IMG/VR virus record: IMGVR_UViG_3300037108_000012
Coordinates: 1 to 64,000 of that record
Reading direction: 5' to 3' (one strand)
DNA length: 64,000 nucleotides
Source: a virus
Shown here: positions 12,667 through 56,654 of the stretch, one piece after another
How positions within the stretch are numbered: the first letter of the stretch is position 1
Layout: every line of letters begins with the position of its first letter
Notes under the pieces: generated by a model
The model's input: the letters and a program-made list of their open reading frames with translations, nothing else
The model's database searches: none
Told to the model about the DNA's origin: nothing
Translations under genes and position numbers: made by a program

Positions 12667-13701
12667 TTACTCTCTGCCGCTTATCAATTGCCCGATAGGA
12701 CCGCTATTCAAACGAACGAAAGAATCGGTGTACTGAATTTTTTCGTCACGGCGGATAGCGTCACGGATAAGCAAGACAGCGAATTCTCCATGCTGCGCTT
12801 CGGTGTAGAGGCGAGTGGCGTAGGTTGCGATACGGTTGAAGTTCATATCGTTTGCGCGGGCGGCGAGTCCTACCGATACAGCATACAATTCGCTAGGCTT
12901 GCTAGGAATTGCGGCAGTATCGGGAGCTAACAGAATCGCGTCAAGGTTGACAAGTGACCGATACATTGACCGAAAAGACAGGTACTCTAGCGCTGCGCCT
13001 TCTCCCACTGCGCCGGAAAATGCGGCAGACTCAATATCAGCGGGCAAGTTGAGCGCTTCGAGTTTGGCAACGTGCGACCACGTTCTTGGAACAGGCGAGT
13101 TTGTTAGGTCTGCCGTTGCTTGAAAGTTGCACAGAAGATCGGAGCGGAAGCGCAAAAATGCAATGAGCATAGGACTAACGCTATGAGCGTATGCCCATGT
13201 ACTCCAGTCATCGATATTGGCTTCAAGGTCAACGATACAGGCAAACCGGGATTTTACCGGCTCTAAAATCCCTGATACTCCAGCGCGGTCACTGCGCCGA
13301 TTCGTCGCGGCAACAAAGGTAATGCAATCCGGCAGAATGTGCCCGTTTACCCGTCGCGCAAGGATAAGTTGCATAAAGCTAGCTTGCACAGCAGGAGTTG
13401 CTTGACCTAGATCGTCAAGCAGCCAAACAGTAGGACGAACGGCATTTATTGCCGTTGCCAGTTCGCCAAACGGCAGGAAAGTGGCGGTGTTTCCATCGGC
13501 TTTCGGCCATGGGAGACCTTTAGCATCGGTAGGATCTGCTACGGCAGGATGTGAGATTAGAAGGTCTGCTCCCGCACTAGCAGCCGCTTGTGCGATAATG
13601 TCGGACTTTCCTACTCCCGGAGCACCTGTAATCAGTAAAGGCAAACGGGCAGGAATCATGGCTGCAAGTAACGCGGTCAATTGTTTTGGCGATACGCTCA
13701 T
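12667..13701 (-). CDS. MoxR-like AAA+ ATPase
   Basis: Walker A GAPGVGKS, Walker B WLLDD, AATN sensor, PRTW. Confidence 0.9.
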   Translation of the reverse strand: MSVSPKQLTALLAAMIPARLPLLITGAPGVGKSDIIAQAAASAGADLLISHPAVADPTDAKGLPWPKADGNTATFLPFGELATAINAVRPTVWLLDDLGQATPAVQASFMQLILARRVNGHILPDCITFVAATNRRSDRAGVSGILEPVKSRFACIVDLEANIDDWSTWAYAHSVSPMLIAFLRFRSDLLCNFQATADLTNSPVPRTWSHVAKLEALNLPADIESAAFSGAVGEGAALEYLSFRSMYRSLVNLDAILLAPDTAAIPSKPSELYAVSVGLAARANDMNFNRIATYATRLYTEAQHGEFAVLLIRDAIRRDEKIQYTDSFVRLNSGPIGQLISGRE

Positions 13702-49700: not shown

Positions 49701-50586
49701 GATTACGAGCGGCTCCCCGGCCAGCGGGAACATCGCAGTGTTCTCCAGCAGCACGGCGATTACCGCAGCCACGGCGGCGCAAGTGGGAGCGCTGCTCAAT
49801 TTGACCCAGTACGGCATTGTCTACAGCACGGGGTCGAGCGGCGCTCCGGGAACCATTCTGCCTAGCTCGTGGACAACAGGACACACGTTCGTCCCTGCAT
49901 GGCAGCCGAGCGGGTCCGCGCTGGCTCCGGTAGTCGTGGATATGACATACGCGGCGGCGCTCTCGTACACGCCAGCGAATCAGTCCACCACGATCAATGG
50001 TCACCCGCTGAGCAGCAATGTGACGGTGAGCGCATCGGACCTTACTACTGGCACGCTACCGCACGCGCAGTTGCCCACATTGCTCAGTGGAGACATTCCC
50101 AACAATGCAGCGAACACGAGCGGCACAGCGGCGAATCTGAGTGGCACCCCAGCGCTTCCGAATGGCGTTACAGCCACAACGCAGAGCGCTGGCGATAACA
50201 GCACGAAGCTGGCGACTACGGCCTATATCGATGGGACGTTTGGAGCAGGCCACAGACCATGGGCGTGCGATACCGGCGTCGGCGACGGATTAAATGCGAT
50301 CACGGCAGGAACCTATCTTCAGACCATGTGCCAAAACACAACTGGCGTTTCAGTGACGCTGACGGGACTCAGTTGCTACATCGACAGCGGCTCTAGTTCC
50401 ACCATGAATGCGGCAGGCAACACGTTGGGAGCGCTGTTGACAGGTGCGGTGACGTGCAGCACGTCGTTTTCGGCGGGAACACAAAGTGCAAACGTGACGC
50501 TCACGAACGGCGACTACATCAAATTCACCTTTGTGGCAGATGGCACAGCCAAACAGACAACCTGGGTTGTGAAAGGAACTTACTAA
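46768..50586 (+). CDS. Tailspike/fibre-like protein (pectate-lyase-3-like beta-helix) with Sec signal peptide
   Basis: MKKIIALGFLFVASLAYS|Q; YNVMDPKYGA...DDTAAIQAA; ISQGGTG; DNSTKLATTAY. Confidence 0.8.
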   Translation: MKKIIALGFLFVASLAYSQTAVLPVYDCVQNGVQAVTSGLKSSNYQLGVVPYCQVTVFLTGTTTIATTNPQTPLQAKSDGSIPPIYATTGVGYDVKFSGGIYPNVYTTPVTLTDVQVGGSGLTAPVLISQGGTGQTTLPAAQAALGIIGPTYNVMDPKYGACGNWNGSTGCDDTAAIQAAFNDCYNNANSPQGGIVEFPGQHNYKITSTINGLDGCRIEGTIGNINGGYGPPEIVEVFPSQGVTATVTGFTVTRNCTTGGSGCTYTAAFPSDRGGIGVQNRLAPYVVSFTGTNSYTANQWVEISGCSTAGGLGLNRSVLQVASSTGTGFVAVAPESGISLGTFADNCTVTSRNVVLAFDGSARYEQEVKDIEVATYDANTIGILFGSRVDTGTRVYNTWVAGTSEYSYYFAQGGINVDFDKGWRADRAQQGGIYWRIGGGDDLSLLNGTEDNTSTASASGPMIVLDGEASCGLMLLHVENVKMEINTSIQPGEGVVTMYDCPLGANYPQFRISFDEVFLAPSTTSTAGFNFTTLSMIPASGNSLKFTAINTDLQSGTGANTTQPFIGIPELTAHSIAGSHGNTPLLAYGNSNISSGQSVMDAAPNELFGDTNIDQLWQYGINASDFLYTDTAFTALATGTTLYKGQIIAPPTYWDVASPTRYALQVVKATGTTGTPNSGSTTCSAPGSTNVLTCTSATDLTVGQVLSAGTCGSRTINLIDATNPSSVNIYGAGNWNACTGQTLGFLAPTLGPEIQLLTKRSAAPTTGTWVAGDEVQNDGSITNVSTTSGWQCTVSGTPGTWIAQAAGGVSSITAADGTMTVTPTTGPATVAVNLAGAFTWTGSQVLGNTSSLLIGSGASVISNANFVLRPYTPAISGTNVNGPNLSFIAAGYPTGGPSAFASINCSAVITNTVQTPITTLKCTGTNSGSLASTFGADFSLLTAGFVVPSTFSMSGCGASQYVKGDGTGCGTPSGAGTVITSGSPASGNIAVFSSSTAITAATAAQVGALLNLTQYGIVYSTGSSGAPGTILPSSWTTGHTFVPAWQPSGSALAPVVVDMTYAAALSYTPANQSTTINGHPLSSNVTVSASDLTTGTLPHAQLPTLLSGDIPNNAANTSGTAANLSGTPALPNGVTATTQSAGDNSTKLATTAYIDGTFGAGHRPWACDTGVGDGLNAITAGTYLQTMCQNTTGVSVTLTGLSCYIDSGSSSTMNAAGNTLGALLTGAVTCSTSFSAGTQSANVTLTNGDYIKFTFVADGTAKQTTWVVKGTY

Positions 50587-51374
50587 TGAAAAAGCTAACA
50601 TCTATCCTTCTTCTTTGGATGCTGCTCTTCGTGCAGCAGGCTGCGTTCGGTCAGCAGATTATTTCCGGGCGGCATCGGAAGATATTTACGGCCACCGGCA
50701 GCCCAACTTACGTCGGCTACACCTACTGCCCCAGAACATATAGCGGCTCAACGGCCACGTCCACGGCTACCTGTGGTGGCGGAGGTACTTTGACTGTTGC
50801 TGTTGGGGATGTAATTGTAATGGAGTGCGGAACTGACACTTATAGTGTAGGGCAGTCGGTTGTAAACCTATCGGACAGCAACGCCAATAGCTACACACTA
50901 GGAGGAGATACCAGCAGCGCGTCTTATTACAGGGAATATAGCCGAGGCGGGTGGGCGGTTGCTTCTACGGCAGGAGCTACAAACTTTATTTGTACGATGA
51001 CCAATGCGACAGGCGATGTCAACTTTGCGGTGGTTGTTTACAGAGGGCTTCTTGGCACCGTCGATACATCTTTGGCCAGCAATCTTTACCCTAATTCAGG
51101 GTCATTCTTGACATCATCTTTTACCACGACGGTCAAAGACCTTGTAATAGTTTGCGCTTCTTCGGGAGATGCAAACGCAGGTGGTATCTGGATGGCAGGA
51201 CTCATACAAGGGTCAACTGGTTCCGTTGTAGGCGTAAGTGGAGCAACACTAAGTACTAGCTCATTAACAGGATGCGAGGCCCGACTGAATAGTAGTTTTG
51301 GCAGCGGCACAGCAGCAATGACATACGGAGGGCGTGGAGATTATGGGTACCAAGTACTCGCCTTCAAGTATTAG
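50586..51374 (+). CDS. Secreted beta-rich fibre-associated protein
   Basis: Start at TAATG overlap; MKKLTSILLLWMLLFVQQAAFG|Q. Confidence 0.7.
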   Translation: MKKLTSILLLWMLLFVQQAAFGQQIISGRHRKIFTATGSPTYVGYTYCPRTYSGSTATSTATCGGGGTLTVAVGDVIVMECGTDTYSVGQSVVNLSDSNANSYTLGGDTSSASYYREYSRGGWAVASTAGATNFICTMTNATGDVNFAVVVYRGLLGTVDTSLASNLYPNSGSFLTSSFTTTVKDLVIVCASSGDANAGGIWMAGLIQGSTGSVVGVSGATLSTSSLTGCEARLNSSFGSGTAAMTYGGRGDYGYQVLAFKY

Positions 51375-51598
51375 TTGACAGCGGGGCAAATTACAACGGC
51401 TTGCGGAACAGCGCTATAGGGCAAGCAGAGCATGGACGTGGGATGGGATATTCACACAGAGTGTCCCAACGCTCGGAACCACGGTAGTATTGGCAGGAAC
51501 AAACTTTGCCGCTGTTGGCGGCGTTTCTGTGCAGATGTTTGTGATTAAGTAGCACCCGTTAGAGTCCAGTTGGAGATTTTCAGGAATGGGGTAAGCGA

Positions 51599-51880
51599 AT
51601 GTCGGAAACGACGATAGCGGAATTGGCAAAAGAGGCGCGCGAAGACGACCGGGCATGGAAGCGTCAGATCGAAGGGACAATCGAGGGCGTGCGCAACACC
51701 ATCAATGAACACGGTCAGACACTTGCGGAAATCAAAGCCAATACATCACCGTTGCCAGATTTACACCGTCGCCTCCGAGACACCGAAAGCTCCACGAGTA
51801 ATTTGTGGACAGTGCTCAGAGTCACATGGGCTGTGATTGTGGCTCTTGTCGGCGCAACATGGCTTTGGACCAAGCATTAA
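51599..51880 (+). CDS. Coiled-coil + C-terminal TM protein (holin/XhlA-like)
   Basis: Architecture and position at start of lysis region. Confidence 0.55.
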   Translation: MSETTIAELAKEAREDDRAWKRQIEGTIEGVRNTINEHGQTLAEIKANTSPLPDLHRRLRDTESSTSNLWTVLRVTWAVIVALVGATWLWTKH

Positions 51881-52154
51881 AGGAGACCCACTGTGACCGT
51901 AACCGTGACCGTGATGGAACCAGCTTGCAAGGCGGATGCAGTTGAGGCCCAACGCGCCTCCAGAATCATCAACGGACTCTACAACGCCTGCCACATCAAA
52001 GCCATGCGTGCCATCCTGAAAGAGATTGGTAGACCTGCCTGGATATGGGCCAGCCGGAACCAGTTATTCGCGGCAATCATCACCGCGCGGCAGGACGCTT
52101 CCATGTTGAACCCGAAGCGCGACGCGGAGCTGGCAGAAAACCTGAAAAAGGCTA

Positions 52155-52184
52155 TTGACAGATGGGTGTGATTGTGCTTACAAT
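52155..52184 (+). promoter_or_regulatory. Sigma70-type promoter with inverted repeat over -10
   Basis: TTGACA-18nt-TACAAT; ATTGT-gctt-ACAAT at 52171-52184. Confidence 0.7.
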
Positions 52185-52191
52185 TGCATAC

Positions 52192-52326
52192 ATGGCTGAC
52201 GATTGCATGGTGCGAGTGCCCCGGCACCTGTTCGAGGAGATCAGGCGATTGGCCCACCCTGCGACAGCGGCGGCGTATTTGCGCCATGTGATCGAGCAGC
52301 ATATCGAGCAAGCACGGAAGAAGTGA
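52192..52326 (+). CDS. Small ribbon-helix-helix-like protein (44 aa), probably leaderless
   Basis: MADDCMVRVPRHLFEEIRRLAHPATAAAYLRHVIEQHIEQARKK; ATG 7 nt after the -10 box. Confidence 0.6.
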   Translation: MADDCMVRVPRHLFEEIRRLAHPATAAAYLRHVIEQHIEQARKK

Positions 52327-52331
52327 GACGG

Positions 52332-52432
52332 TCACGCAAGACGGGCAAACTTTCCATAGTGCGCAGTTGCCGCTTCGCAGTAGAGTTTGTAGGCTTCAAC
52401 AGCGGTGGAACGATGGCCCAAACGAAAACTTT
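52332..52432 (-). pseudogene. AP2-domain C-terminal remnant of an HNH-AP2 endonuclease
   Basis: FRLGHRSTAVEAYKLYCEAATAHYGKFARLA resembles the C-terminus of 54396-54866. Confidence 0.6.
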
Positions 52433-52465
52433 GTCGCCCCCCACGCGGGGGGCGTGGATTGAAAC
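52433..52465 (+). CRISPR. Solitary type I-C CRISPR repeat (no array, no cas genes)
   Basis: GTCGCCCCCCACGCGGGGGGCGTGGATTGAAAC: GTCGC 5' end, GC hairpin, GTGGATTGAAAC 3' end. Confidence 0.85.
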
Positions 52466-52717
52466 AATCATCGGCAGGGCGGTGAAAGGCCGTCTGACAG
52501 CATGGAAAGACAGCAACTTGCGCGGGAGCGCCCGGACTCCGAACAGGACATCGGGATCGGAACTCACCAAATGCGGCCCGCGCAAAGAGATTGAGTCGCT
52601 GGCGTGGATGTGCTTGCAGGCTGCGGCGAAAGCCGGATACCGACCACGACGGTAGCCTGGAAATTAAGCGGCGGTGAGCAGCGATGCAAGCCGCCGCAAA
52701 GCAAAGGAGCAAGCATC

Positions 52718-52939
52718 ATGAAGAACTGGAAAACAACTACGGCGGGGCTGCTAGTGGCATTAGCATACGGCCTGCAAAACTATAACGGAGCAAACACTTG
52801 GCAGGGATATGCTGTATGTTTCTTCCTTGCTGCCGGTGGATTCTTCTCCAAGGATTACAACACGCATTCAACGGAGGCCCAAGTGCAAACGGCCACGGAT
52901 GATGCCAAGGTTGCCACGCTGGCTGCTGTCAACAAGTGA
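52718..52939 (+). CDS. Holin (putative)
   Basis: MKNWKTTTAG..., two hydrophobic segments, SKD motif; AAGGAG RBS. Confidence 0.65.
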   Translation: MKNWKTTTAGLLVALAYGLQNYNGANTWQGYAVCFFLAAGGFFSKDYNTHSTEAQVQTATDDAKVATLAAVNK

Positions 52940-53350
52940 GGCCGCAATGACCAGTACATCATCGTGCATTATCATCTACCCATGCACCGCAGCATTAGGG
53001 ATGCTTGCCCTTCTTAATGCTGGCTTCAAGCAACGGGGCAAGCAGTGAGGCCGCGATGAGACATATTCTCTCTATGGTCCTACAATTGCTTTGCTTTGCG
53101 ACTATCATGGGGCTTTGTGGGTTTTCGCTATGGCGCGATTTTTTGCGTTTCCGCAATATGTGGCGTGAAATTAAGGAATACCGAGATTCGGACCAGTAAC
53201 CAGAAGCAAAGGAAGTGAGGCCGAGATGAATCGCAAATCAGTCTACCTGCTTGTCGGCATCACGTATTGGCTCTGCGTCATTGTCGCATTTGCGAAGATG
53301 ATGCAGGGTATCGGAAACCAGTAACGCAGCACAACCCGCAAAGGAGACCT

Positions 53351-53863
53351 ATGAAGCGAATCTCTGTATTTACCATCATCATGCTGGCAGCTTTCGCTAT
53401 GCACGCGCAGACCACCACCCCATCATTATCCGCGACTACTGACGCCGTGGGCATCCACGAAGCGGGCGCGTGGGCCGCTGCCACGCATATTACTGAGTCG
53501 CTGGACTTGGTTGATTTCGGCGCGAAGAAGACGAACCATTTCTATGTCGATGGTCATGAGATTTTGGCCGAAGCGTCCAACTTCACGCTCTATACTGGGG
53601 GAGGTTCCATTCAACCGGACTTGAGCGCCTTATGGAAAAAGACAAACATTTCCTCAGACAACATCAGCATTTTGTTTTCCGTTTCTGCCGGCGACAAGAT
53701 TCCGACCGGGATAGGATCGGCTCACATTGCTGGTTTGTTCAGCGGGTCTTTCCGCTATCGAGCATCCAGCACTTTGACGTGGAACACGCTGCAAGCCGGG
53801 GCGATCCTGAGCGCTGGCAAGGTAAGCCCGTTCGTTTCCACGGGCCTCGTCAAGTATTTTTAG
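53351..53863 (+). CDS. Secreted, possibly outer-membrane beta-barrel protein
   Basis: MKRISVFTIIMLAAFAMHA|Q; amphipathic strands; C-terminal ...GLVKYF. Confidence 0.6.
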   Translation: MKRISVFTIIMLAAFAMHAQTTTPSLSATTDAVGIHEAGAWAAATHITESLDLVDFGAKKTNHFYVDGHEILAEASNFTLYTGGGSIQPDLSALWKKTNISSDNISILFSVSAGDKIPTGIGSAHIAGLFSGSFRYRASSTLTWNTLQAGAILSAGKVSPFVSTGLVKYF

Positions 53864-53871
53864 GAGGCACC

Positions 53872-54099
53872 ATGGCAATTCTCACAGAACTGGCTGGTTT
53901 GGTCACTGATGCCCGCGCTCTTGTTCAGGCGTGGACGCTAGTGGCTCCCAGCGTCAAAGCGGCTGCGGACGCGGCAACGACCGACATAATCAAACTCGGC
54001 ACGACCGAAGACACTATCACTGCGGAGATTCCTCAAGCCCAGGCCAGCGTGCAAGAGGTTGCGGACGCGGCGAAGAACTTCAAAATCAAGGTGCTTTGA
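53872..54099 (+). CDS. Small helical hypothetical protein
   Basis: ATG at 53872 after AGGAGG. Confidence 0.6.
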   Translation: MAILTELAGLVTDARALVQAWTLVAPSVKAAADAATTDIIKLGTTEDTITAEIPQAQASVQEVADAAKNFKIKVL

Positions 54100-54259
54100 T
54101 GGCACCCACAGAGGTCCCAAGATGAAGTGGTGGCAGCGTATAGGATGGCTGATTACCTGGCCAATCGGCAAGCTGACAGGAATCAGCAGGATCAACAAAC
54201 CATAGGGGCTGCTGCATGAGGCATGGGGCCCGGCCCCGAATAAGTTGCGCGGTTGATAT

Positions 54260-54344
54260 GGTGGGTTGCCAGAGAGGTTTAATGGCGTGACGTGCAAAGG
54301 TTAAATCCTGTCACGATTCGTTGGTCCGAATCCAACACCCACCA
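54260..54344 (+). tRNA. tRNA-like element (GCA at anticodon position) with anticodon-loop insertion
   Basis: Acceptor GGTGGGT/ACCCACC, D arm GCCA/TGGC, anticodon stem GTGAC/GTCAC, T arm GTTGG-TCCGAAT-CCAAC. Confidence 0.6.
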
Positions 54345-54363
54345 GAGAACCGCGCATTTTCAC

Positions 54364-54397
54364 AGCCGCCTGTTCTCATGTGCAGGCGGCTTTTGTT
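54364..54397 (+). terminator. Rho-independent terminator
   Basis: agccgcctg-loop-caggcggct-tttgtt. Confidence 0.7.
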
Positions 54398-54866
54398 ATT
54401 CAAAACAAGCAAATTCTCCAAACAACTCTTTGGCCTTCTCGCAATATCTGAGATGAGCCTCTAGCTCAGAAGAGAAAGTTCCGAGACTGATTGCTTTACC
54501 ATTATGAAAAATGGTTGACCAATATCTTTTACCTTGCCTGTATGCCCCTTTTAGTGATCCGTCGTTTCTCTTTCCTTTAGAGTTTCTGTTATTTTGTGAT
54601 ACTGTTGCAATACGAAGATTAAATCTCCTATTATCTAAGGTATTATGATTTATATGATCCCCTTTGAGGGGAGAATCTTTTTCTATCCCAAGGATTATTC
54701 TGTGCATACGAATAGATGGACTATACCCTCCGTTTCTTTTATCGTTTCTCACGGCATAAAATAAGCCCCTTCTTGAATGCGCGTACCATTTCCACTGCAT
54801 CAGCCAATCGTAATCAGCGGCATCAACAATGGCAACCTTTATAACAAGGAGATGAGATGAATTCAA
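54396..54866 (-). CDS. HNH-AP2 homing endonuclease (N-terminus possibly truncated)
   Basis: VAIVDAADY, DHINHNTLDNRRFNLR, AP2 LGTFSSELEAH...FGEFA. Confidence 0.8.
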   Translation of the reverse strand: MNSSHLLVIKVAIVDAADYDWLMQWKWYAHSRRGLFYAVRNDKRNGGYSPSIRMHRIILGIEKDSPLKGDHINHNTLDNRRFNLRIATVSQNNRNSKGKRNDGSLKGAYRQGKRYWSTIFHNGKAISLGTFSSELEAHLRYCEKAKELFGEFACFE

Positions 54867-55288
54867 GCCAAAACTGCCGGAATCAGATAATGCAATGGGA
54901 AGGCACCAAATTGTCTATCTATTCAGATGCAAATGGTTTTCCAACAGTGGGGATAGGCCACAAACTCACGCCCGCAGAGATTGCCACGCACGCCTATGCG
55001 AATGGCATCACAACCGGGCAGGCTGTGATTCTCTTCGACGATGACATTGCGAGCTTCGATGCGCAGATCAATTCGCTCTTCGACGATAGACATTTGACGC
55101 AGGGGCAGTTCGATGCTCTTGTAAGTTTCTGCTACAACAATGGGTTTGGGCGACTGCGCACGATGCTCTCGCATGGGCTGGCGAATGTGCCGAACGAGTT
55201 GCCGCGTTGGGTGTACGCCGGGACGGTAAAGCTCCCCGGCCTGGTCACGCGGCGTGCGCAAGAGGTTGCGTGGTGGAATCAGAAGTAA
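54857..55288 (+). CDS. Endolysin, GH24 lysozyme
   Basis: WEG..LSIYSDANGFPTVGIGH, QFDALVSFCYN, GLVTRRAQE. Confidence 0.92.
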   Translation: MNSSQNCRNQIMQWEGTKLSIYSDANGFPTVGIGHKLTPAEIATHAYANGITTGQAVILFDDDIASFDAQINSLFDDRHLTQGQFDALVSFCYNNGFGRLRTMLSHGLANVPNELPRWVYAGTVKLPGLVTRRAQEVAWWNQK

Positions 55289-55423
55289 AATCCAAAAAAG
55301 AGACATGGTGTAGCGCCATAGCAGCGGAATAAAAACTTGCATTTTGATTGAAAGTTTGTGTTAAACTGATTCCATCGGGAGAGGAGAGCGCGGGCTTGTC
55401 TCTATTTTTGTTTGGAGGTTGAG

Positions 55424-55624
55424 ATGCCATCAAGCGTTGTTATGGAAGAATTTCGGGAAGGAAAACTTCACTCTGGAAAGAAAGTGAAGGGGAAGAAACG
55501 TAAGTTAGTTCATAATAAAAAGCAAGCTAAGGCTATTCTTCTCTCGTATCTCCGTAAAGAGGGGAAAATAGTACCGCGCAAAGGAAATAACACAAATCAA
55601 AAGAAACGTGTGGCTGGAAAATGA
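55424..55624 (+). CDS. Small basic DUF6496-like protein ending KRVAGK
   Basis: VMEEFREGKLHSG...NKKQAKAI. Confidence 0.7.
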   Translation: MPSSVVMEEFREGKLHSGKKVKGKKRKLVHNKKQAKAILLSYLRKEGKIVPRKGNNTNQKKRVAGK

Positions 55625-55782
55625 GTGAAATCGAATCATGCACACTTGAGAGCGTAGGAAAAGGACGCAAGAGGGTTGCGGGGAAAATGAAGACGAGAAT
55701 GCCTTACGCGAAAAAAGGAAGTAAATTTGAGTTTGCAAAGAAAAGCGGAAAAGGTAAGCGTTTTTCTACGAAGAAAGGTTAA
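55621..55782 (+). CDS. Small basic protein (53 aa) containing KRVAGK
   Basis: Manual translation MSEIESCTLESVGKGRKRVAGKMKTRMPYAKKGSKFEFAKKSGKGKRFSTKKG; ATGA overlap. Confidence 0.65.
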   Translation: MSEIESCTLESVGKGRKRVAGKMKTRMPYAKKGSKFEFAKKSGKGKRFSTKKG

Positions 55783-55784
55783 AG

Positions 55785-56654
55785 ATGAAGAGATTTTTGT
55801 TGATTTCTCTCCTTTTGGTATGCGGGTTAGTTGCACACGGACAAGCCTGCTCGCCTGTGAACGGAATGACTTGCACCCCGAACCTCAACTTGTACCTTCC
55901 TCCGCTCAACTATCAGAACTGGAACATCGCTCTCAATGCAAACTTCAACTTGCTCGATACCTCGTCGGCTAATTGGGTAAAGTTGAACGCCTTAAACACG
56001 TTTACCCAAATTCAGACTATGCCAGGTCTGGTTATTACTGGAGCGCCGTCAGGAACTTACGCCAAAGCGGATGGTACAGGCTACGGGACTCCTGCGGGAA
56101 ACACCCCATGTACTATAGGACAGTTAGCTTACTATGCATCTGGTGGAGCGGTACAAGCCTGCTTGAATCTAGGGACAGGATTAACTATCACAAGTGGAAC
56201 GCTCAATGCGGCAGGAGGTAGCGGGGGCATCACCCAACTGACAGGAGATGTTAACGCAACCGGACCTAACATTGCAACGGCAACATTGACGGCGAGTGGA
56301 GTGACAGCGGGAAGCTATACCGGGGCAACAATCACGGTAGACGCAAAGGGACGAGTGACGGCTGCGGCAACAGGGTTCACTTCGGGAAGTAATACTAACG
56401 GTTACTGGGAAAAAAGCCCGACAGGGCACATCCATCAATGGGGATTAACCACTGTTTCCAGCTCTACAACAACAATCACATTTCCGACACCGTTTACAAT
56501 TTTGGCCTCAATAATTCCTAGCGGTAGTCCATTAGGAACCACATCGCAACCATCAGCAGATAATCCTCCGTTGTTTTGGAATGTGGGGTTGAATGGTATG
56601 TCAATAAACACCAATAGCTCGACGGGGGCTAGTTGGACAGCCGACGGATATTAG
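55785..56654 (+). CDS. Short tail-fibre-like protein with Sec signal peptide and gp53-like C-terminal domain
   Basis: MKRFLLISLLLVCGLVAHG|Q; TPNLNLYLP...ALNANF; ITVDAKGRVTAA; HIHQWG...TITFPTPF. Confidence 0.8.
   Translation: MKRFLLISLLLVCGLVAHGQACSPVNGMTCTPNLNLYLPPLNYQNWNIALNANFNLLDTSSANWVKLNALNTFTQIQTMPGLVITGAPSGTYAKADGTGYGTPAGNTPCTIGQLAYYASGGAVQACLNLGTGLTITSGTLNAAGGSGGITQLTGDVNATGPNIATATLTASGVTAGSYTGATITVDAKGRVTAAATGFTSGSNTNGYWEKSPTGHIHQWGLTTVSSSTTTITFPTPFTILASIIPSGSPLGTTSQPSADNPPLFWNVGLNGMSINTNSSTGASWTADGY

What the first reader, a model, noticed from the sequence alone, without database searches (positions are those of the whole stretch)
52155..52717. Promoter + RHH gene + solitary type I-C CRISPR repeat + structured RNA, placed upstream of the holin
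Seen: a near-consensus promoter (TTGACA-18-TACAAT) has an inverted repeat across its -10 box. A 44-aa RHH-like gene starts at the predicted TSS. A single 33-nt I-C-type repeat follows in the transcribed orientation (52433-52465), with no second full repeat and no cas genes in the window. Established: solitary repeat units in mobile elements can act as RNA anti-CRISPRs (Racrs); Aca10, which regulates acrIC operons, is an RHH protein; type I-C repeats are cut by Cas5c at the hairpin base. Inference: this is either an autoregulated racrIC locus, or a Cas5c-cleavable sensor that links host CRISPR status to processing of the holin mRNA. The second reading would be novel.
Basis: partly seen in the sequence, partly recalled or inferred. 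Interest (0 to 1): 0.9.

Follow-up and report, generated by a model that had tools for sequence, protein, structure and literature searches.

The report
Lone host CRISPR repeat in phage
A soil/peat phage carries one exact copy of its likely host's type I-C CRISPR repeat in the RNA leader between a small regulator gene and its putative lysis genes. This is most likely a decoy RNA against CRISPR immunity, a kind of element already known.

Summary
The core observation holds. At 52433-52465 (+) an IMG/VR phage contig has one 33-nt sequence that is 33/33 identical to the repeat of CRISPR arrays in Acidobacteriaceae MAGs. One such array sits beside a full type I-C operon (cas3-cas5c-cas8c-cas7-cas4-cas1-cas2) on the same strand. 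The phage record has no second full repeat and no Cas5c, Cas7 or Cas8c.

The promoter is real as a pattern, and its -35 box recurs in relatives. The 44-aa ORF is plausibly ribbon-helix-helix (RHH). Two details fail or weaken: the "inverted repeat over the -10" is only CAATTG, and the downstream "structured RNA" is weak (z -1.85).

New here:
- A very stable, strand-specific 106-nt RNA hairpin (52195-52300, z -5.1) overlies the RHH ORF.
- A tandem 14-nt operator-like repeat flanks the -10 box and the predicted start.
- A hairpin-less partial repeat lies at 52595-52609.

None of five relatives' contigs has the repeat, yet one keeps the promoter-RHH-holin layout. So the RHH is not a dedicated Aca. 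Aca10 is HTH, not RHH.

Best reading (~0.45): a RacrIC-like decoy, a new member of a known kind. A neutral recombination scar is the main rival. The Cas5c "lysis sensor" idea is untested and unlikely. The scan has noted lone-repeat units on other DNA before.

The parts
51893..52171 (+). 92-aa orphan gene whose 3' end overlaps the promoter
   Evidence: ORF list. No Pfam or PHROG hit. Only its own cluster in the 5.8-billion protein search. None of 20 pattern-matching stretches in viral contigs encodes a relative. In variant contigs of runs X5 and X6 the sequence left of 52168 is different.
52155..52184 (+). Sigma-70-type promoter TTGACA-18-TACAAT; start of transcription predicted near 52191 (inference)
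   Evidence: 11 of 12. It is one of only 2 such sites in the window on both strands, against 1.2 expected by chance. A TTGACA box at the matching place occurs in L041 (4224-4229) and in the loose ends of X5 and X6 contigs that join at 52168.
52176..52208 (+). Two 14-nt direct repeats (52176-52189 over the -10 box; 52195-52208 just after the predicted start): candidate operator
   Evidence: Family D1. 12 of 14 identical, 19 nt apart. 6 of 2000 shuffles of the 81-nt region reach this.
52192..52326 (+). 44-aa ORF, probably a ribbon-helix-helix DNA-binding protein
   Evidence: AF2 single sequence: pLDDT 88, coil 1-10, helices 11-19 and 23-43. Homodimer model: score 0.52 against best control 0.00, with symmetric contacts 7:7, 6:6 and 9:5 plus helix 2 to helix 2. 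31% identity to the positional homologue in L041, whose two best PDB hits are RHH proteins, E 0.041 and 0.43. Against: no Pfam or PHROG hit, BLASTP to L041 finds nothing, Foldseek finds nothing, codon score -0.10.
52195..52300 (+). 106-nt RNA hairpin overlying the ORF. A 20-bp stem pairs 52200-52219 with 52275-52294; the fold as a whole has 7 G-U pairs
   Evidence: -55.8 kcal/mol, z -5.06, 0 of 200 shuffles as stable. The opposite strand gives -42.6 kcal/mol and, for the 140-nt stretch, z +0.19. More stable than all 2,412 sampled 106-nt windows of the window (best -52.0; mean -22.6, sd 6.8).
52433..52465 (+). Solitary type I-C CRISPR repeat. 8-bp stem 52435-52442 with 52447-52454, loop ACGC, 11-nt tail 52455-52465
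   Evidence: The hairpin forms in isolation (z -2.51) and inside the 391-nt context fold.
52595..52609 (+). Hairpin-less partial repeat: GTCGC, one T, then GGCGTGGAT
   Evidence: Seen by eye. 6 of 20,000 shuffles of 52466-52717 give such a pair; this is a post-hoc test. The 9-mer is part of family D8/D9.
52466..52667 (+). Non-coding leader. An 18-nt block at 52578-52595 is shared with relative L042
   Evidence: Alignment. The fold of 52466-52717 has z -1.85. The 80-aa ORF that overlaps it and the repeat (52413-52655) has only its own record as a hit and a codon score of 0.004.
52668..52697 (+). GC-rich hairpin 20 nt before the putative holin start. The surrounding 40-nt block is identical in L042
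   Evidence: -23.7 kcal/mol, z -3.96, 0 of 200 shuffles as stable. A 40-nt identical block appears. Other contigs in X5 and X6 share only 52667-52737. No U-tract follows, and it is not called a terminator.
52718..52939 (+). 73-aa putative holin, with AAAGGAG at 52703-52709
   Evidence: Homologues stand before small membrane proteins and the endolysin in L041 and L042. No family hit. Holin families appear only as leads at 0.84-0.85. The endolysin is at 54857-55288 (PF00959, 2.8e-27).

Best explanation
The repeat is a phage-borne solitary repeat unit that acts as an RNA decoy for the host's type I-C CRISPR machinery, like RacrIC1.

Proposed course:
1. Host RNA polymerase fires the promoter at 52155-52184. 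This rests on a pattern match plus a conserved -35 box.
2. The transcript starts near 52191 and opens with a very stable 106-nt hairpin that embeds the small RHH gene. It then runs through the repeat. No terminator-like site is predicted before 54364, so it probably continues into the putative holin genes (inferred).
3. The RHH dimer binds the tandem 14-nt repeats over the -10 box and the start site and shuts the promoter after a burst (inferred by analogy with Aca proteins and P22 Arc; the Arc comparison is recalled).
4. Host Cas5c recognises the intact repeat hairpin and binds it, or cuts after G52454. This leaves the 11-nt handle UGGAUUGAAAC on an RNA with no proper spacer or 3' hairpin. 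Cas5c, Cas7 and Cas8c are drawn into useless complexes and interference drops (inferred; the cut position is recalled from published I-C work).

Shown here: the identity, solitariness, orientation and intergenic place of the repeat; the I-C nature of the matching host arrays; and the targeting of a related phage by one such array.
For: - 33/33 identity to array repeats in 25 genome stretches, 22 of them Acidobacteriota.
- The G001 array lies next to a complete I-C operon on the same strand.
- Single copy in the window and in the whole record; no cas5c, csd2 or csd1.
- Same strand as the promoter and all flanking genes.
- The repeat hairpin survives in the context fold.
- The overlapping ORF has no relatives and no coding signal.
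- One spacer of an array with the identical repeat (9th of the 26 spacers parsed from L016) matches relative phage L042 at 28 of 32. The best match in each of 5 control sets of reversed or shuffled spacers was 24-26.
- Contigs from two further DNA runs of other studies carry both flanks of the repeat with no differences and at equal depth on each side (27.3 vs 26.6; 13.8 vs 14.5).
- Precedent: RacrIC1, a type I-C solitary repeat co-transcribed with a small protein gene, inhibits I-C interference. 2,103 viral solitary repeats were reported, 83% matching the host subtype (PMC10651486, passages and section 9).
Against: - None of 5 relatives' contigs (27-82% complete) has even the 10-mer GGATTGAAAC. 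No conservation therefore argues for selection.
- The promoter-RHH module stands before the holin homologue in L041 without any repeat. The regulator is not tied to the repeat.
- No known acr gene is nearby; the neighbours are orphans.
- The unit lies in the leader of putative lysis genes, so its timing may be late, which suits a decoy poorly.
- A hairpin-less partial repeat and a weak 67-nt periodic likeness to the repeat (1.0% of a GC-matched null reaches it) suggest capture from an array. That would also fit a scar.
- Transcription is not shown. All sequencing runs were available only as contigs.
Confidence: 0.45

Rival explanations
1. Neutral scar. The repeat, and perhaps the partial copy at 52595-52609, was captured recently by recombination with a host CRISPR array or from a decayed phage mini-array. 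It has no function of its own and is intact only because it is young.
For: - Absent from 5 of 5 relatives' contigs.
- All population copies seen are near-identical genomes, so there is no evolutionary depth.
- Partial hairpin-less repeat 129 nt downstream (6 of 20,000 shuffles, post hoc).
- Weak repeat-likeness at a 67-nt period on both sides (fraction of the null reaching the observed value 0.010).
- This part of the genome is mosaic, with breakpoints at 52168 and 52667 in other contigs.
Against: - If the flanks are old array remains, they have decayed to near-random while one repeat stayed 33/33. That pattern looks like selection.
- No host spacer among about 390 post-repeat 36-mers resembles the flank: best 13 of 21, and 17% of shuffles do as well.
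- No locus hit the window outside the repeat.
- Sense orientation behind a strong promoter is what functional units show (PMC10651486).
Confidence: 0.3
2. Guide-type unit. The repeat supplies a 5' handle, and the adjoining phage sequence then serves as a guide. This could be a Cracr/crlRNA that silences host cas or toxin promoters, or a one-repeat weapon against sibling phages that lack the insert.
For: - A perfect repeat gives a correct 5' handle to the sequence from 52466 on.
- Viral Cracrs exist for type I-C (preprint 10.1101/2024.10.29.618823, abstract, section 7 and passages).
- Earlier notes of this scan describe one-repeat cassettes on other phages (unchecked leads).
- A degenerate repeat-like stretch starts exactly 67 nt upstream (52366), with a 32-nt gap to the repeat (about the top 3% of the background).
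Against: - No TTC plus 9 or more PAM-proximal matches for either candidate spacer in the five host cas loci of about 17 kb each that I fetched.
- The 12-mer TTC+9 occurs at 5 places in 2 of 5 host genomes. None lies on the array's contig except one in G004, which is about 261 kb from that array.
- No exact 24-mer of either flank elsewhere in viral contigs, and none of the left flank in metagenome contigs.
- No joint skipping the repeat in 4 runs.
- The 3 nt before the repeat are TTT, not TTC.
- There is no second hairpin-bearing repeat to define a 3' end.
Confidence: 0.1
3. Phage gene control through host Cas5c. The repeat makes the operon leader a Cas5c substrate. Cleavage or Cascade loading then uncouples the regulator from the lysis genes, or tunes holin expression according to host I-C activity.
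For: - No terminator-like site on the + strand between 52155 and 54364, so the repeat and the putative holin are probably on one transcript.
- The leader is long and has two strong hairpins.
- A regulator gene precedes the holin homologue in all three related phages compared.
Against: - Relatives run the same operon without a repeat.
- Nothing links cleavage to translation of the holin: the conserved hairpin and ribosome-binding site lie 200 nt further on.
- The holin identity itself is unproven.
Confidence: 0.07
4. Assembly artefact. The two flanks were joined wrongly through a repeat shared with abundant host arrays, or a real multi-repeat array was collapsed to one repeat.
For: In all four runs laid, k=31 contigs break at the repeat and none bridges it. 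Depth at the repeat reaches 1303 because of host arrays.
Against: - Both flanks are phage sequence in gene order shared with relatives.
- The flanks have equal depth in two independent runs.
- A 33-nt repeat is spanned by ordinary reads and by larger k-mers (inference about the original assembly).
Confidence: 0.03

Closest known systems
RacrIC1 and other viral solitary repeat units / RNA anti-CRISPRs (Camara-Wilpert et al. 2023, PMC10651486; passages and section 9 read)
   Same: A single copy of a host-type CRISPR repeat on a phage. It is intergenic, has no cas genes, lies downstream of a predicted promoter, is probably co-transcribed with a small protein gene just upstream, and matches the subtype of the likely host.
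   Different: No known acr gene is adjacent. Here the repeat is 106 nt after the small gene, against 11 nt after acrIC5 for RacrIC1. The small gene looks like a regulator, not an Acr. The unit sits in the leader of putative lysis genes. Activity is untested. I could not check whether this contig is in that paper's supplementary lists, because supplements were closed.
Viral Cracr / crRNA-like regulatory RNAs (Liu et al., preprint 10.1101/2024.10.29.618823; abstract, section 7 and passages read)
   Same: Repeat-derived RNA on a phage that engages host type I Cas proteins. Type I-C examples exist.
   Different: Cracrs have degenerate repeats on both sides of a short spacer that matches a cas or creT promoter by at least 9 PAM-proximal bases. 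Here there is one perfect repeat, and no such match in five host cas loci.
Aca14, the ribbon-helix-helix anti-CRISPR-associated repressor (preprint 10.64898/2026.07.27.740549; passages read), and P22 Arc at Pant (recalled)
   Same: A small RHH-type protein encoded first behind a strong promoter, with repeats overlapping the -10 box. Autorepression is expected.
   Different: There is no detectable sequence relationship (one search found only the protein itself). The operator here is a direct repeat, not the inverted repeat described for Aca14. The same module occurs in a relative without any anti-CRISPR candidate.
Virus-borne mini-CRISPR arrays (Medvedeva et al. 2019; recalled, and named in earlier scan notes)
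   Same: CRISPR repeats on a virus without cas genes.
   Different: Those have at least two repeats and a spacer that matches rival viruses. Here there is one intact repeat and no target was found.

Membership tests
Solitary repeat unit / Racr candidate (criteria as in PMC10651486) | Sequence matches a known CRISPR repeat | tested here: met
   33/33 identity to array repeats in 25 genome stretches. Rfam CRISPR-DR9 26.8 bits, below the gathering score of 45.
Solitary repeat unit / Racr candidate | Not associated with other full or partial repeats | tested here: inconclusive
   No second full repeat. However, a hairpin-less partial copy lies at 52595-52609 (6 of 20,000 shuffles, post hoc), and there is a weak 67-nt periodic likeness (0.010).
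Solitary repeat unit / Racr candidate | On a virus or plasmid, with no cas genes beside it | tested here: met
   IMG/VR viral record with tail-fibre-sized ORFs, an endolysin and an HNH gene. No Cas5c, Csd2 or Csd1 (control).
Solitary repeat unit / Racr candidate | Intergenic, in sense behind a promoter | tested here: met
   The overlapping 80-aa ORF has only its own record as a hit and a codon score of 0.004, against 0.04-0.23 for the training genes. The promoter lies 250 nt upstream on the same strand. Transcription itself is not shown.
Solitary repeat unit / Racr candidate | Host carries the matching CRISPR-Cas subtype | tested here: inconclusive
   The true host is unknown. 8 of 401 sampled genomes of the G001 family have arrays with this repeat. 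G001 has a full I-C operon. One such array holds a spacer matching relative L042 at 28 of 32.
Solitary repeat unit / Racr candidate | Inhibits CRISPR interference; binds Cas proteins | not testable with these tools
   Needs a reconstituted cognate I-C system.
Aca (anti-CRISPR-associated regulator) | Small DNA-binding protein that represses its own acr promoter through repeats in it | tested here: inconclusive
   RHH-like fold is supported. There is a tandem direct repeat over the -10 box and start site. No binding test was possible.
Aca (anti-CRISPR-associated regulator) | Recurrent association with acr or racr genes across homologues | tested here: not met
   The only homologue found (L041) stands before the holin homologue with no repeat or acr. 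No other homologue was found among 1.84 billion representatives.
Cracr / crlRNA | Spacer portion matches a cas or creT promoter by at least 9 PAM-proximal bases | tested here: not met
   No TTC-flanked match of 9 or more in five host cas loci for either flank.
CRISPR array | At least two repeats separated by a spacer of regular length | tested here: not met
   One intact repeat only.

The most novel reading that the evidence does not exclude
The phage has placed a perfect host I-C repeat inside the long, structured leader of its regulator-plus-lysis operon. Host Cas5c/Cascade would then process or coat that mRNA, which would let the phage read or exploit the host's CRISPR activity to set expression of its lysis genes. 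The very stable 5' hairpin and the conserved pre-holin hairpin would be parts of the same RNA switch.
Probability: 0.06. Interest if true: 0.8.

Novelty: new member of a known kind. Interest (0 to 1): 0.38.

Why it matters
If active, this would be an RNA anti-CRISPR in phages of Acidobacteriaceae. These are abundant but poorly cultivable soil and peat bacteria, and almost nothing is known about their phage-defence conflicts. It would also be a second natural type I-C Racr, paired with an RHH-controlled promoter instead of an Acr protein. The exact repeat match gives a host-family prediction for an uncultivated phage. A spacer match to a sister phage ties this phage group to I-C-bearing Acidobacteriaceae. 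The kind of element itself is already described.

Tried and rejected
- **RNA evidence.** Six RNA-library runs hold part of the stretch, and two were laid. All are contigs, so starts, ends, strand and level cannot be read, and DNA may be present in such libraries. RNA-library contigs lie on 51600-51704, 51899-52091, 52680-53071 and 53089-53200 (X15), and on 51621-51956, 52533-52690 and 52854-53001 (X16). None lies on 52140-52409. I draw no conclusion from cover or from its absence. Contigs of the form repeat-spacer-repeat with other spacers, meaning host arrays, are in both RNA libraries.
- **Relatives with the same flanks.**
  - The exact repeat found 0 other viral contigs.
  - Exact 24-mers of the two flanks found 0.
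  - The left flank found 0 in metagenome contigs.
  - The pre-holin hairpin core found 1 unrelated GC-rich contig, which is a chance hit, and in viral contigs only L042's contig.
- **Prophage search.** The 1.6-kb locus matched 401 genomes of the G001 family only through the repeat, in 8 genomes.
- **A different repeat in the relative's leader.** L042:4380-4845 gave 2 single weak hits in 401 genomes and no Rfam hit in L041 or L042.
- **Junction homology.** The idea that the repeat's 3' edge coincides with a homology breakpoint to L041 or L042 was not supported. Local alignments of both flanks were no better than shuffles (fractions 0.18-0.90), and MAFFT gave a conflicting alignment.
- **Host spacer equal to the flank.** The best was 13 of 21, at chance level.
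- **Two spacers of another array.** Two G136 spacers (that array's repeat has 2 differences from the phage copy) resemble window 13224-13259 at 26-27 of 35-36 with a gap and no PAM. This is close to the control maximum, so it is not used.
- **Other negatives.** Foldseek on the monomer model found nothing at E <= 0.001. Codon-usage scoring could not settle the 44-aa ORF. Supplementary files of papers were closed, so I could not check whether this contig is already listed among the published solitary repeats.
Full report
**What the window is.** The window is the first 64 kb of a 72,887-base linear IMG/VR viral record, estimated 64% complete. Around the finding lie a 1,272-aa tail-fibre-sized ORF, several small ORFs, an HNH endonuclease gene on the minus strand, and a phage lysozyme (PF00959, 2.8e-27).

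**The repeat.** GTCGCCCCCCACGCGGGGGGCGTGGATTGAAAC at 52433-52465 (+) is the only match in the window at up to 3 mismatches, and 0 of 100 shuffles gave one. It is also the only match in the whole record. Rfam's only hit in 50000-56000 is CRISPR-DR9 on exactly these bases (26.8 bits, below the gathering score of 45, E 0.0089).

The exact 33-mer occurs in 25 stretches of the species-representative genome collection. 22 have Acidobacteriota titles (Acidobacteriaceae, Terracidiphilus, Granulicella, Edaphobacter). The other three are a Kiritimatiellia, a Desulfurivibrio and a Desulfatirhabdium record. Most are arrays of up to 31 copies with about 67-nt start-to-start spacing. It occurs in no other IMG/VR contig.

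In G001 the 60-repeat array follows genes that match NCBIfam models for Cas3 domains, Cas5c (1.4e-52), Cas8c/Csd1 (1e-134), Cas7/Csd2 (2.1e-103), Cas4, Cas1c (1.1e-145) and Cas2. All lie on the strand that reads GTCGC...GAAAC. Type I-C and the sense orientation are therefore confirmed. The phage record has no Cas5c, Csd2 or Csd1, and the Cas5c search does find the G001 gene.

The repeat folds as an 8-bp stem (52435-52442 with 52447-52454), a 4-nt loop and an 11-nt tail. This holds both alone and inside the 391-nt context fold. That Cas5 processes I-C repeats is stated in PMC10651486. The exact cut after the stem, leaving an 11-nt handle, is recalled.

**Is it solitary?** Local alignment of the repeat to 52101-52800 on both strands gives at best 18 outside the repeat itself, against a shuffle mean of 16.4 and maximum of 28. 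Two weaker traces exist:
- At 52595-52609 the two ends of the repeat stand together without the hairpin (GTCGC, T, GGCGTGGAT). 6 of 20,000 shuffles produce such a pair; this test is post hoc.
- Summed likeness to the repeat at 67-nt steps (-1, +1, +2, +3) is reached by 1.0% of 17,042 GC-matched null positions. The individual alignments are poor.

These traces hint that the unit came from an array fragment. They do not make it an array.

**Promoter and regulator.** TTGACA-18-TACAAT at 52155-52184 scores 11 of 12. Only two such sites occur in the window on both strands, but 1.2 +/- 1.1 are expected by chance. Better support comes from conservation:
- Relative L041 has TTGACA at the matching place before its small gene.
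- In runs X5 and X6, contigs that differ from the window left of 52168 still bring a TTGACA box at the same distance (loose ends).

The reported inverted repeat over the -10 box is only CAATTG. The non-random feature is a 14-nt direct repeat (12 of 14) at 52176-52189 and 52195-52208, which 6 of 2000 shuffles reach.

The 44-aa ORF (52192-52326) has no Pfam or PHROG hit. Among 1.84 billion representatives the only hits at E <= 0.001 are the protein itself and a repetitive 1,369-aa protein. Evidence for an RHH fold is as follows:
- AlphaFold2 on the single sequence gives an extended N-terminus and two helices, pLDDT 88. Foldseek finds nothing significant.
- A two-copy ESMFold2 model scored 0.52 against a best control of 0.00. 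That mark was reached by 21 of 30 proteins solved as pairs of one chain and by 0 of 23 solved as single chains. The runs agree in at least 97% of contacts, and the partner pLDDT is at least 82.
- The contacts are 7:7, 6:6 and 9:5 plus helix 2 to helix 2, which is the RHH dimer pattern. Because RHH dimers are solved structures, this pass shows likeness, not binding.
- The positional homologue in L041 (53-54 aa) aligns at 31% identity, sharing V7, P10, L13, E16, LAH20-22 and a QARK tail. BLASTP sees nothing.
- Its two best PDB sequence hits are a CopG-family RHH protein (E 0.041) and ORF56 (E 0.43). That ORF56 is an RHH protein is recalled, not from a call.
- Atlas feature look-alikes include RHH_1 clusters at 0.92, as leads only.

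I take the RHH reading as likely.

Bases 52195-52300 (+) fold into one long hairpin of -55.8 kcal/mol, z -5.06, with 0 of 200 shuffles as stable. Its 20-bp stem pairs 52200-52219 with 52275-52294, and the fold has 7 G-U pairs in all. The opposite strand folds at -42.6 kcal/mol, and the 140-nt stretch on that strand has z +0.19. No sampled 106-nt window of the whole window, out of 2,412 on both strands, is as stable (best -52.0).

The hairpin starts 4 nt after the predicted start of transcription. It contains the second operator-like repeat and most of the ORF. Its role is unknown. Possibilities are a 5' stabiliser, a brake on translation of the regulator, an RNase III site, or an RNA mimic of the operator.

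**The region after the repeat.** The claimed structured RNA at 52466-52717 has z -1.85, with 6 of 200 shuffles as good; the minus strand has z -0.70. Its one strong element is the hairpin 52668-52697 (z -3.96), 20 nt before the putative holin start. The 80-aa ORF across the repeat has only its own record as a hit and no coding signal.

**Relatives.** Endolysin and 93-aa-protein queries found five related IMG/VR contigs.
- L041 has tail fibre, a 149-aa gene, TTGACA promoter, RHH-like gene, 82 nt, holin homologue, small membrane proteins and endolysin.
- L042 has a Fis-type HTH gene (PF02954, 1.9e-08), a 91-aa gene, about 450 nt without ORF support, and then the holin homologue.
- The window shares with L042 an 18-nt block (52578-52595) and a 40-nt identical block that holds the pre-holin hairpin.
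- None of the five contigs has GGATTGAAAC. One-mismatch hits number 6, against 3 for the reversed control.
- The L042 leader holds no array-type sequence of 401 Acidobacteriaceae-family genomes and no Rfam family.

A small DNA-binding regulator before the holin operon is therefore the group's common plan. The repeat is an addition in one lineage.

**Host link.** 364 spacers were parsed from the fetched arrays. One, from an array with the identical repeat (L016, the 9th of 26 parsed), matches L042:3934-3965 at 28 of 32, with TTC one base out of register. Five control sets of reversed or shuffled spacers reached at most 24-26. No spacer hits the window convincingly.

**Population.** Among DNA runs not flagged as possible sources, X5 and X6 (two studies) hold contigs with 52168-52465 and 52436-52814 (to 53200 in X6) without differences. 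Depth is equal on both sides of the repeat. The k=31 contigs break at the repeat, so none bridges it.

**Tests of rival mechanisms.**
- Cracr-type guides need at least 9 PAM-proximal matches to a cas or creT promoter (preprint 10.1101/2024.10.29.618823, section 7). Neither flank has a TTC-flanked match of 9 or more in five host cas loci. Genome-wide 12-mer hits are few and lie away from the cas loci.
- A one-repeat weapon against siblings, an idea taken from earlier scan notes, finds no repeat-less sibling. The base triplet before the repeat is TTT.
- The sensor idea has only the absence of a predicted terminator before 54364.

**Literature.**
- RacrIC1 lies 11 nt behind an AcrIC5 homologue, is bicistronic with it, and inhibits I-C interference on its own. 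2,103 viral solitary repeats were found, often just downstream of a promoter (PMC10651486).
- Aca10 is an HTH dimer (PMC9410881).
- The RHH Aca is Aca14, with an inverted repeat over the -10 box (preprint 10.64898/2026.07.27.740549).

**Verdict.** This is a genuine solitary type I-C repeat on an Acidobacteriaceae-type phage. It is most likely a Racr-like decoy (0.45), with a neutral capture scar as the main rival (0.30). It is a new member of a known kind, and the scan has noted lone-repeat units on many other genomes. The RHH-promoter module is real but is not an Aca in the strict sense. The 106-nt hairpin is the most unusual unexplained item.

Noticed in passing
52304-52327; L041:4403-4422; L042:3971-3993: Three different regulator genes end in nearly the same ~20-23 nt, encoding QARKK, QARKQ and QARNK before the stop. 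They are the window's RHH, L041's RHH-like gene and L042's Fis-type HTH gene. This looks like a conserved module boundary for recombination.
   Followed up: partly
54396-54866 (-): The HNH endonuclease gene (phrog_99, 1.2e-27) lies in a low-GC patch (34-39%) between a terminator-like site and the endolysin. It is missing at that place in L041 and L042, so it looks like a homing-endonuclease insertion.
   Followed up: partly
52930-52950 and 53039-53059: Consecutive small genes are joined by the same motif, (A/G)AGTGAGGCCGC(A/G)ATGA, which holds a stop, 7 nt and a start (family D5). The RHH gene ends in a similar AAGTGAG.
   Followed up: no
53058-53086: A second promoter-like site (GAGACA-17-TACAAT) carries a third copy of the 14-nt operator-like motif (53078-53091, 11 of 14) inside a 47-aa ORF.
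   Followed up: no
left of 52168 (runs X5, X6): A variant phage in two peat or permafrost runs has different, L041-like sequence up to a breakpoint inside the promoter spacer. It has the same RHH gene and repeat to the right of that point.
   Followed up: partly
L025:707-739: A lone exact copy of the same repeat lies in a Desulfatirhabdium MAG contig, flanked by AT-rich repetitive DNA with no second repeat within 220 nt.
   Followed up: no
13224-13259 (-): Two related spacers of one Acidobacteriaceae array (G136) resemble the same site in the phage's phrog_1297 ATPase gene at 26-27 of 35-36, with a gap and no PAM. They probably target relatives.
   Followed up: partly
54260-54344: An earlier scan note calls this a tRNA-Cys-like gene with an insert. 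ARAGORN finds no tRNA in 50000-56000. A terminator-like hairpin follows at 54364-54391.
   Followed up: partly
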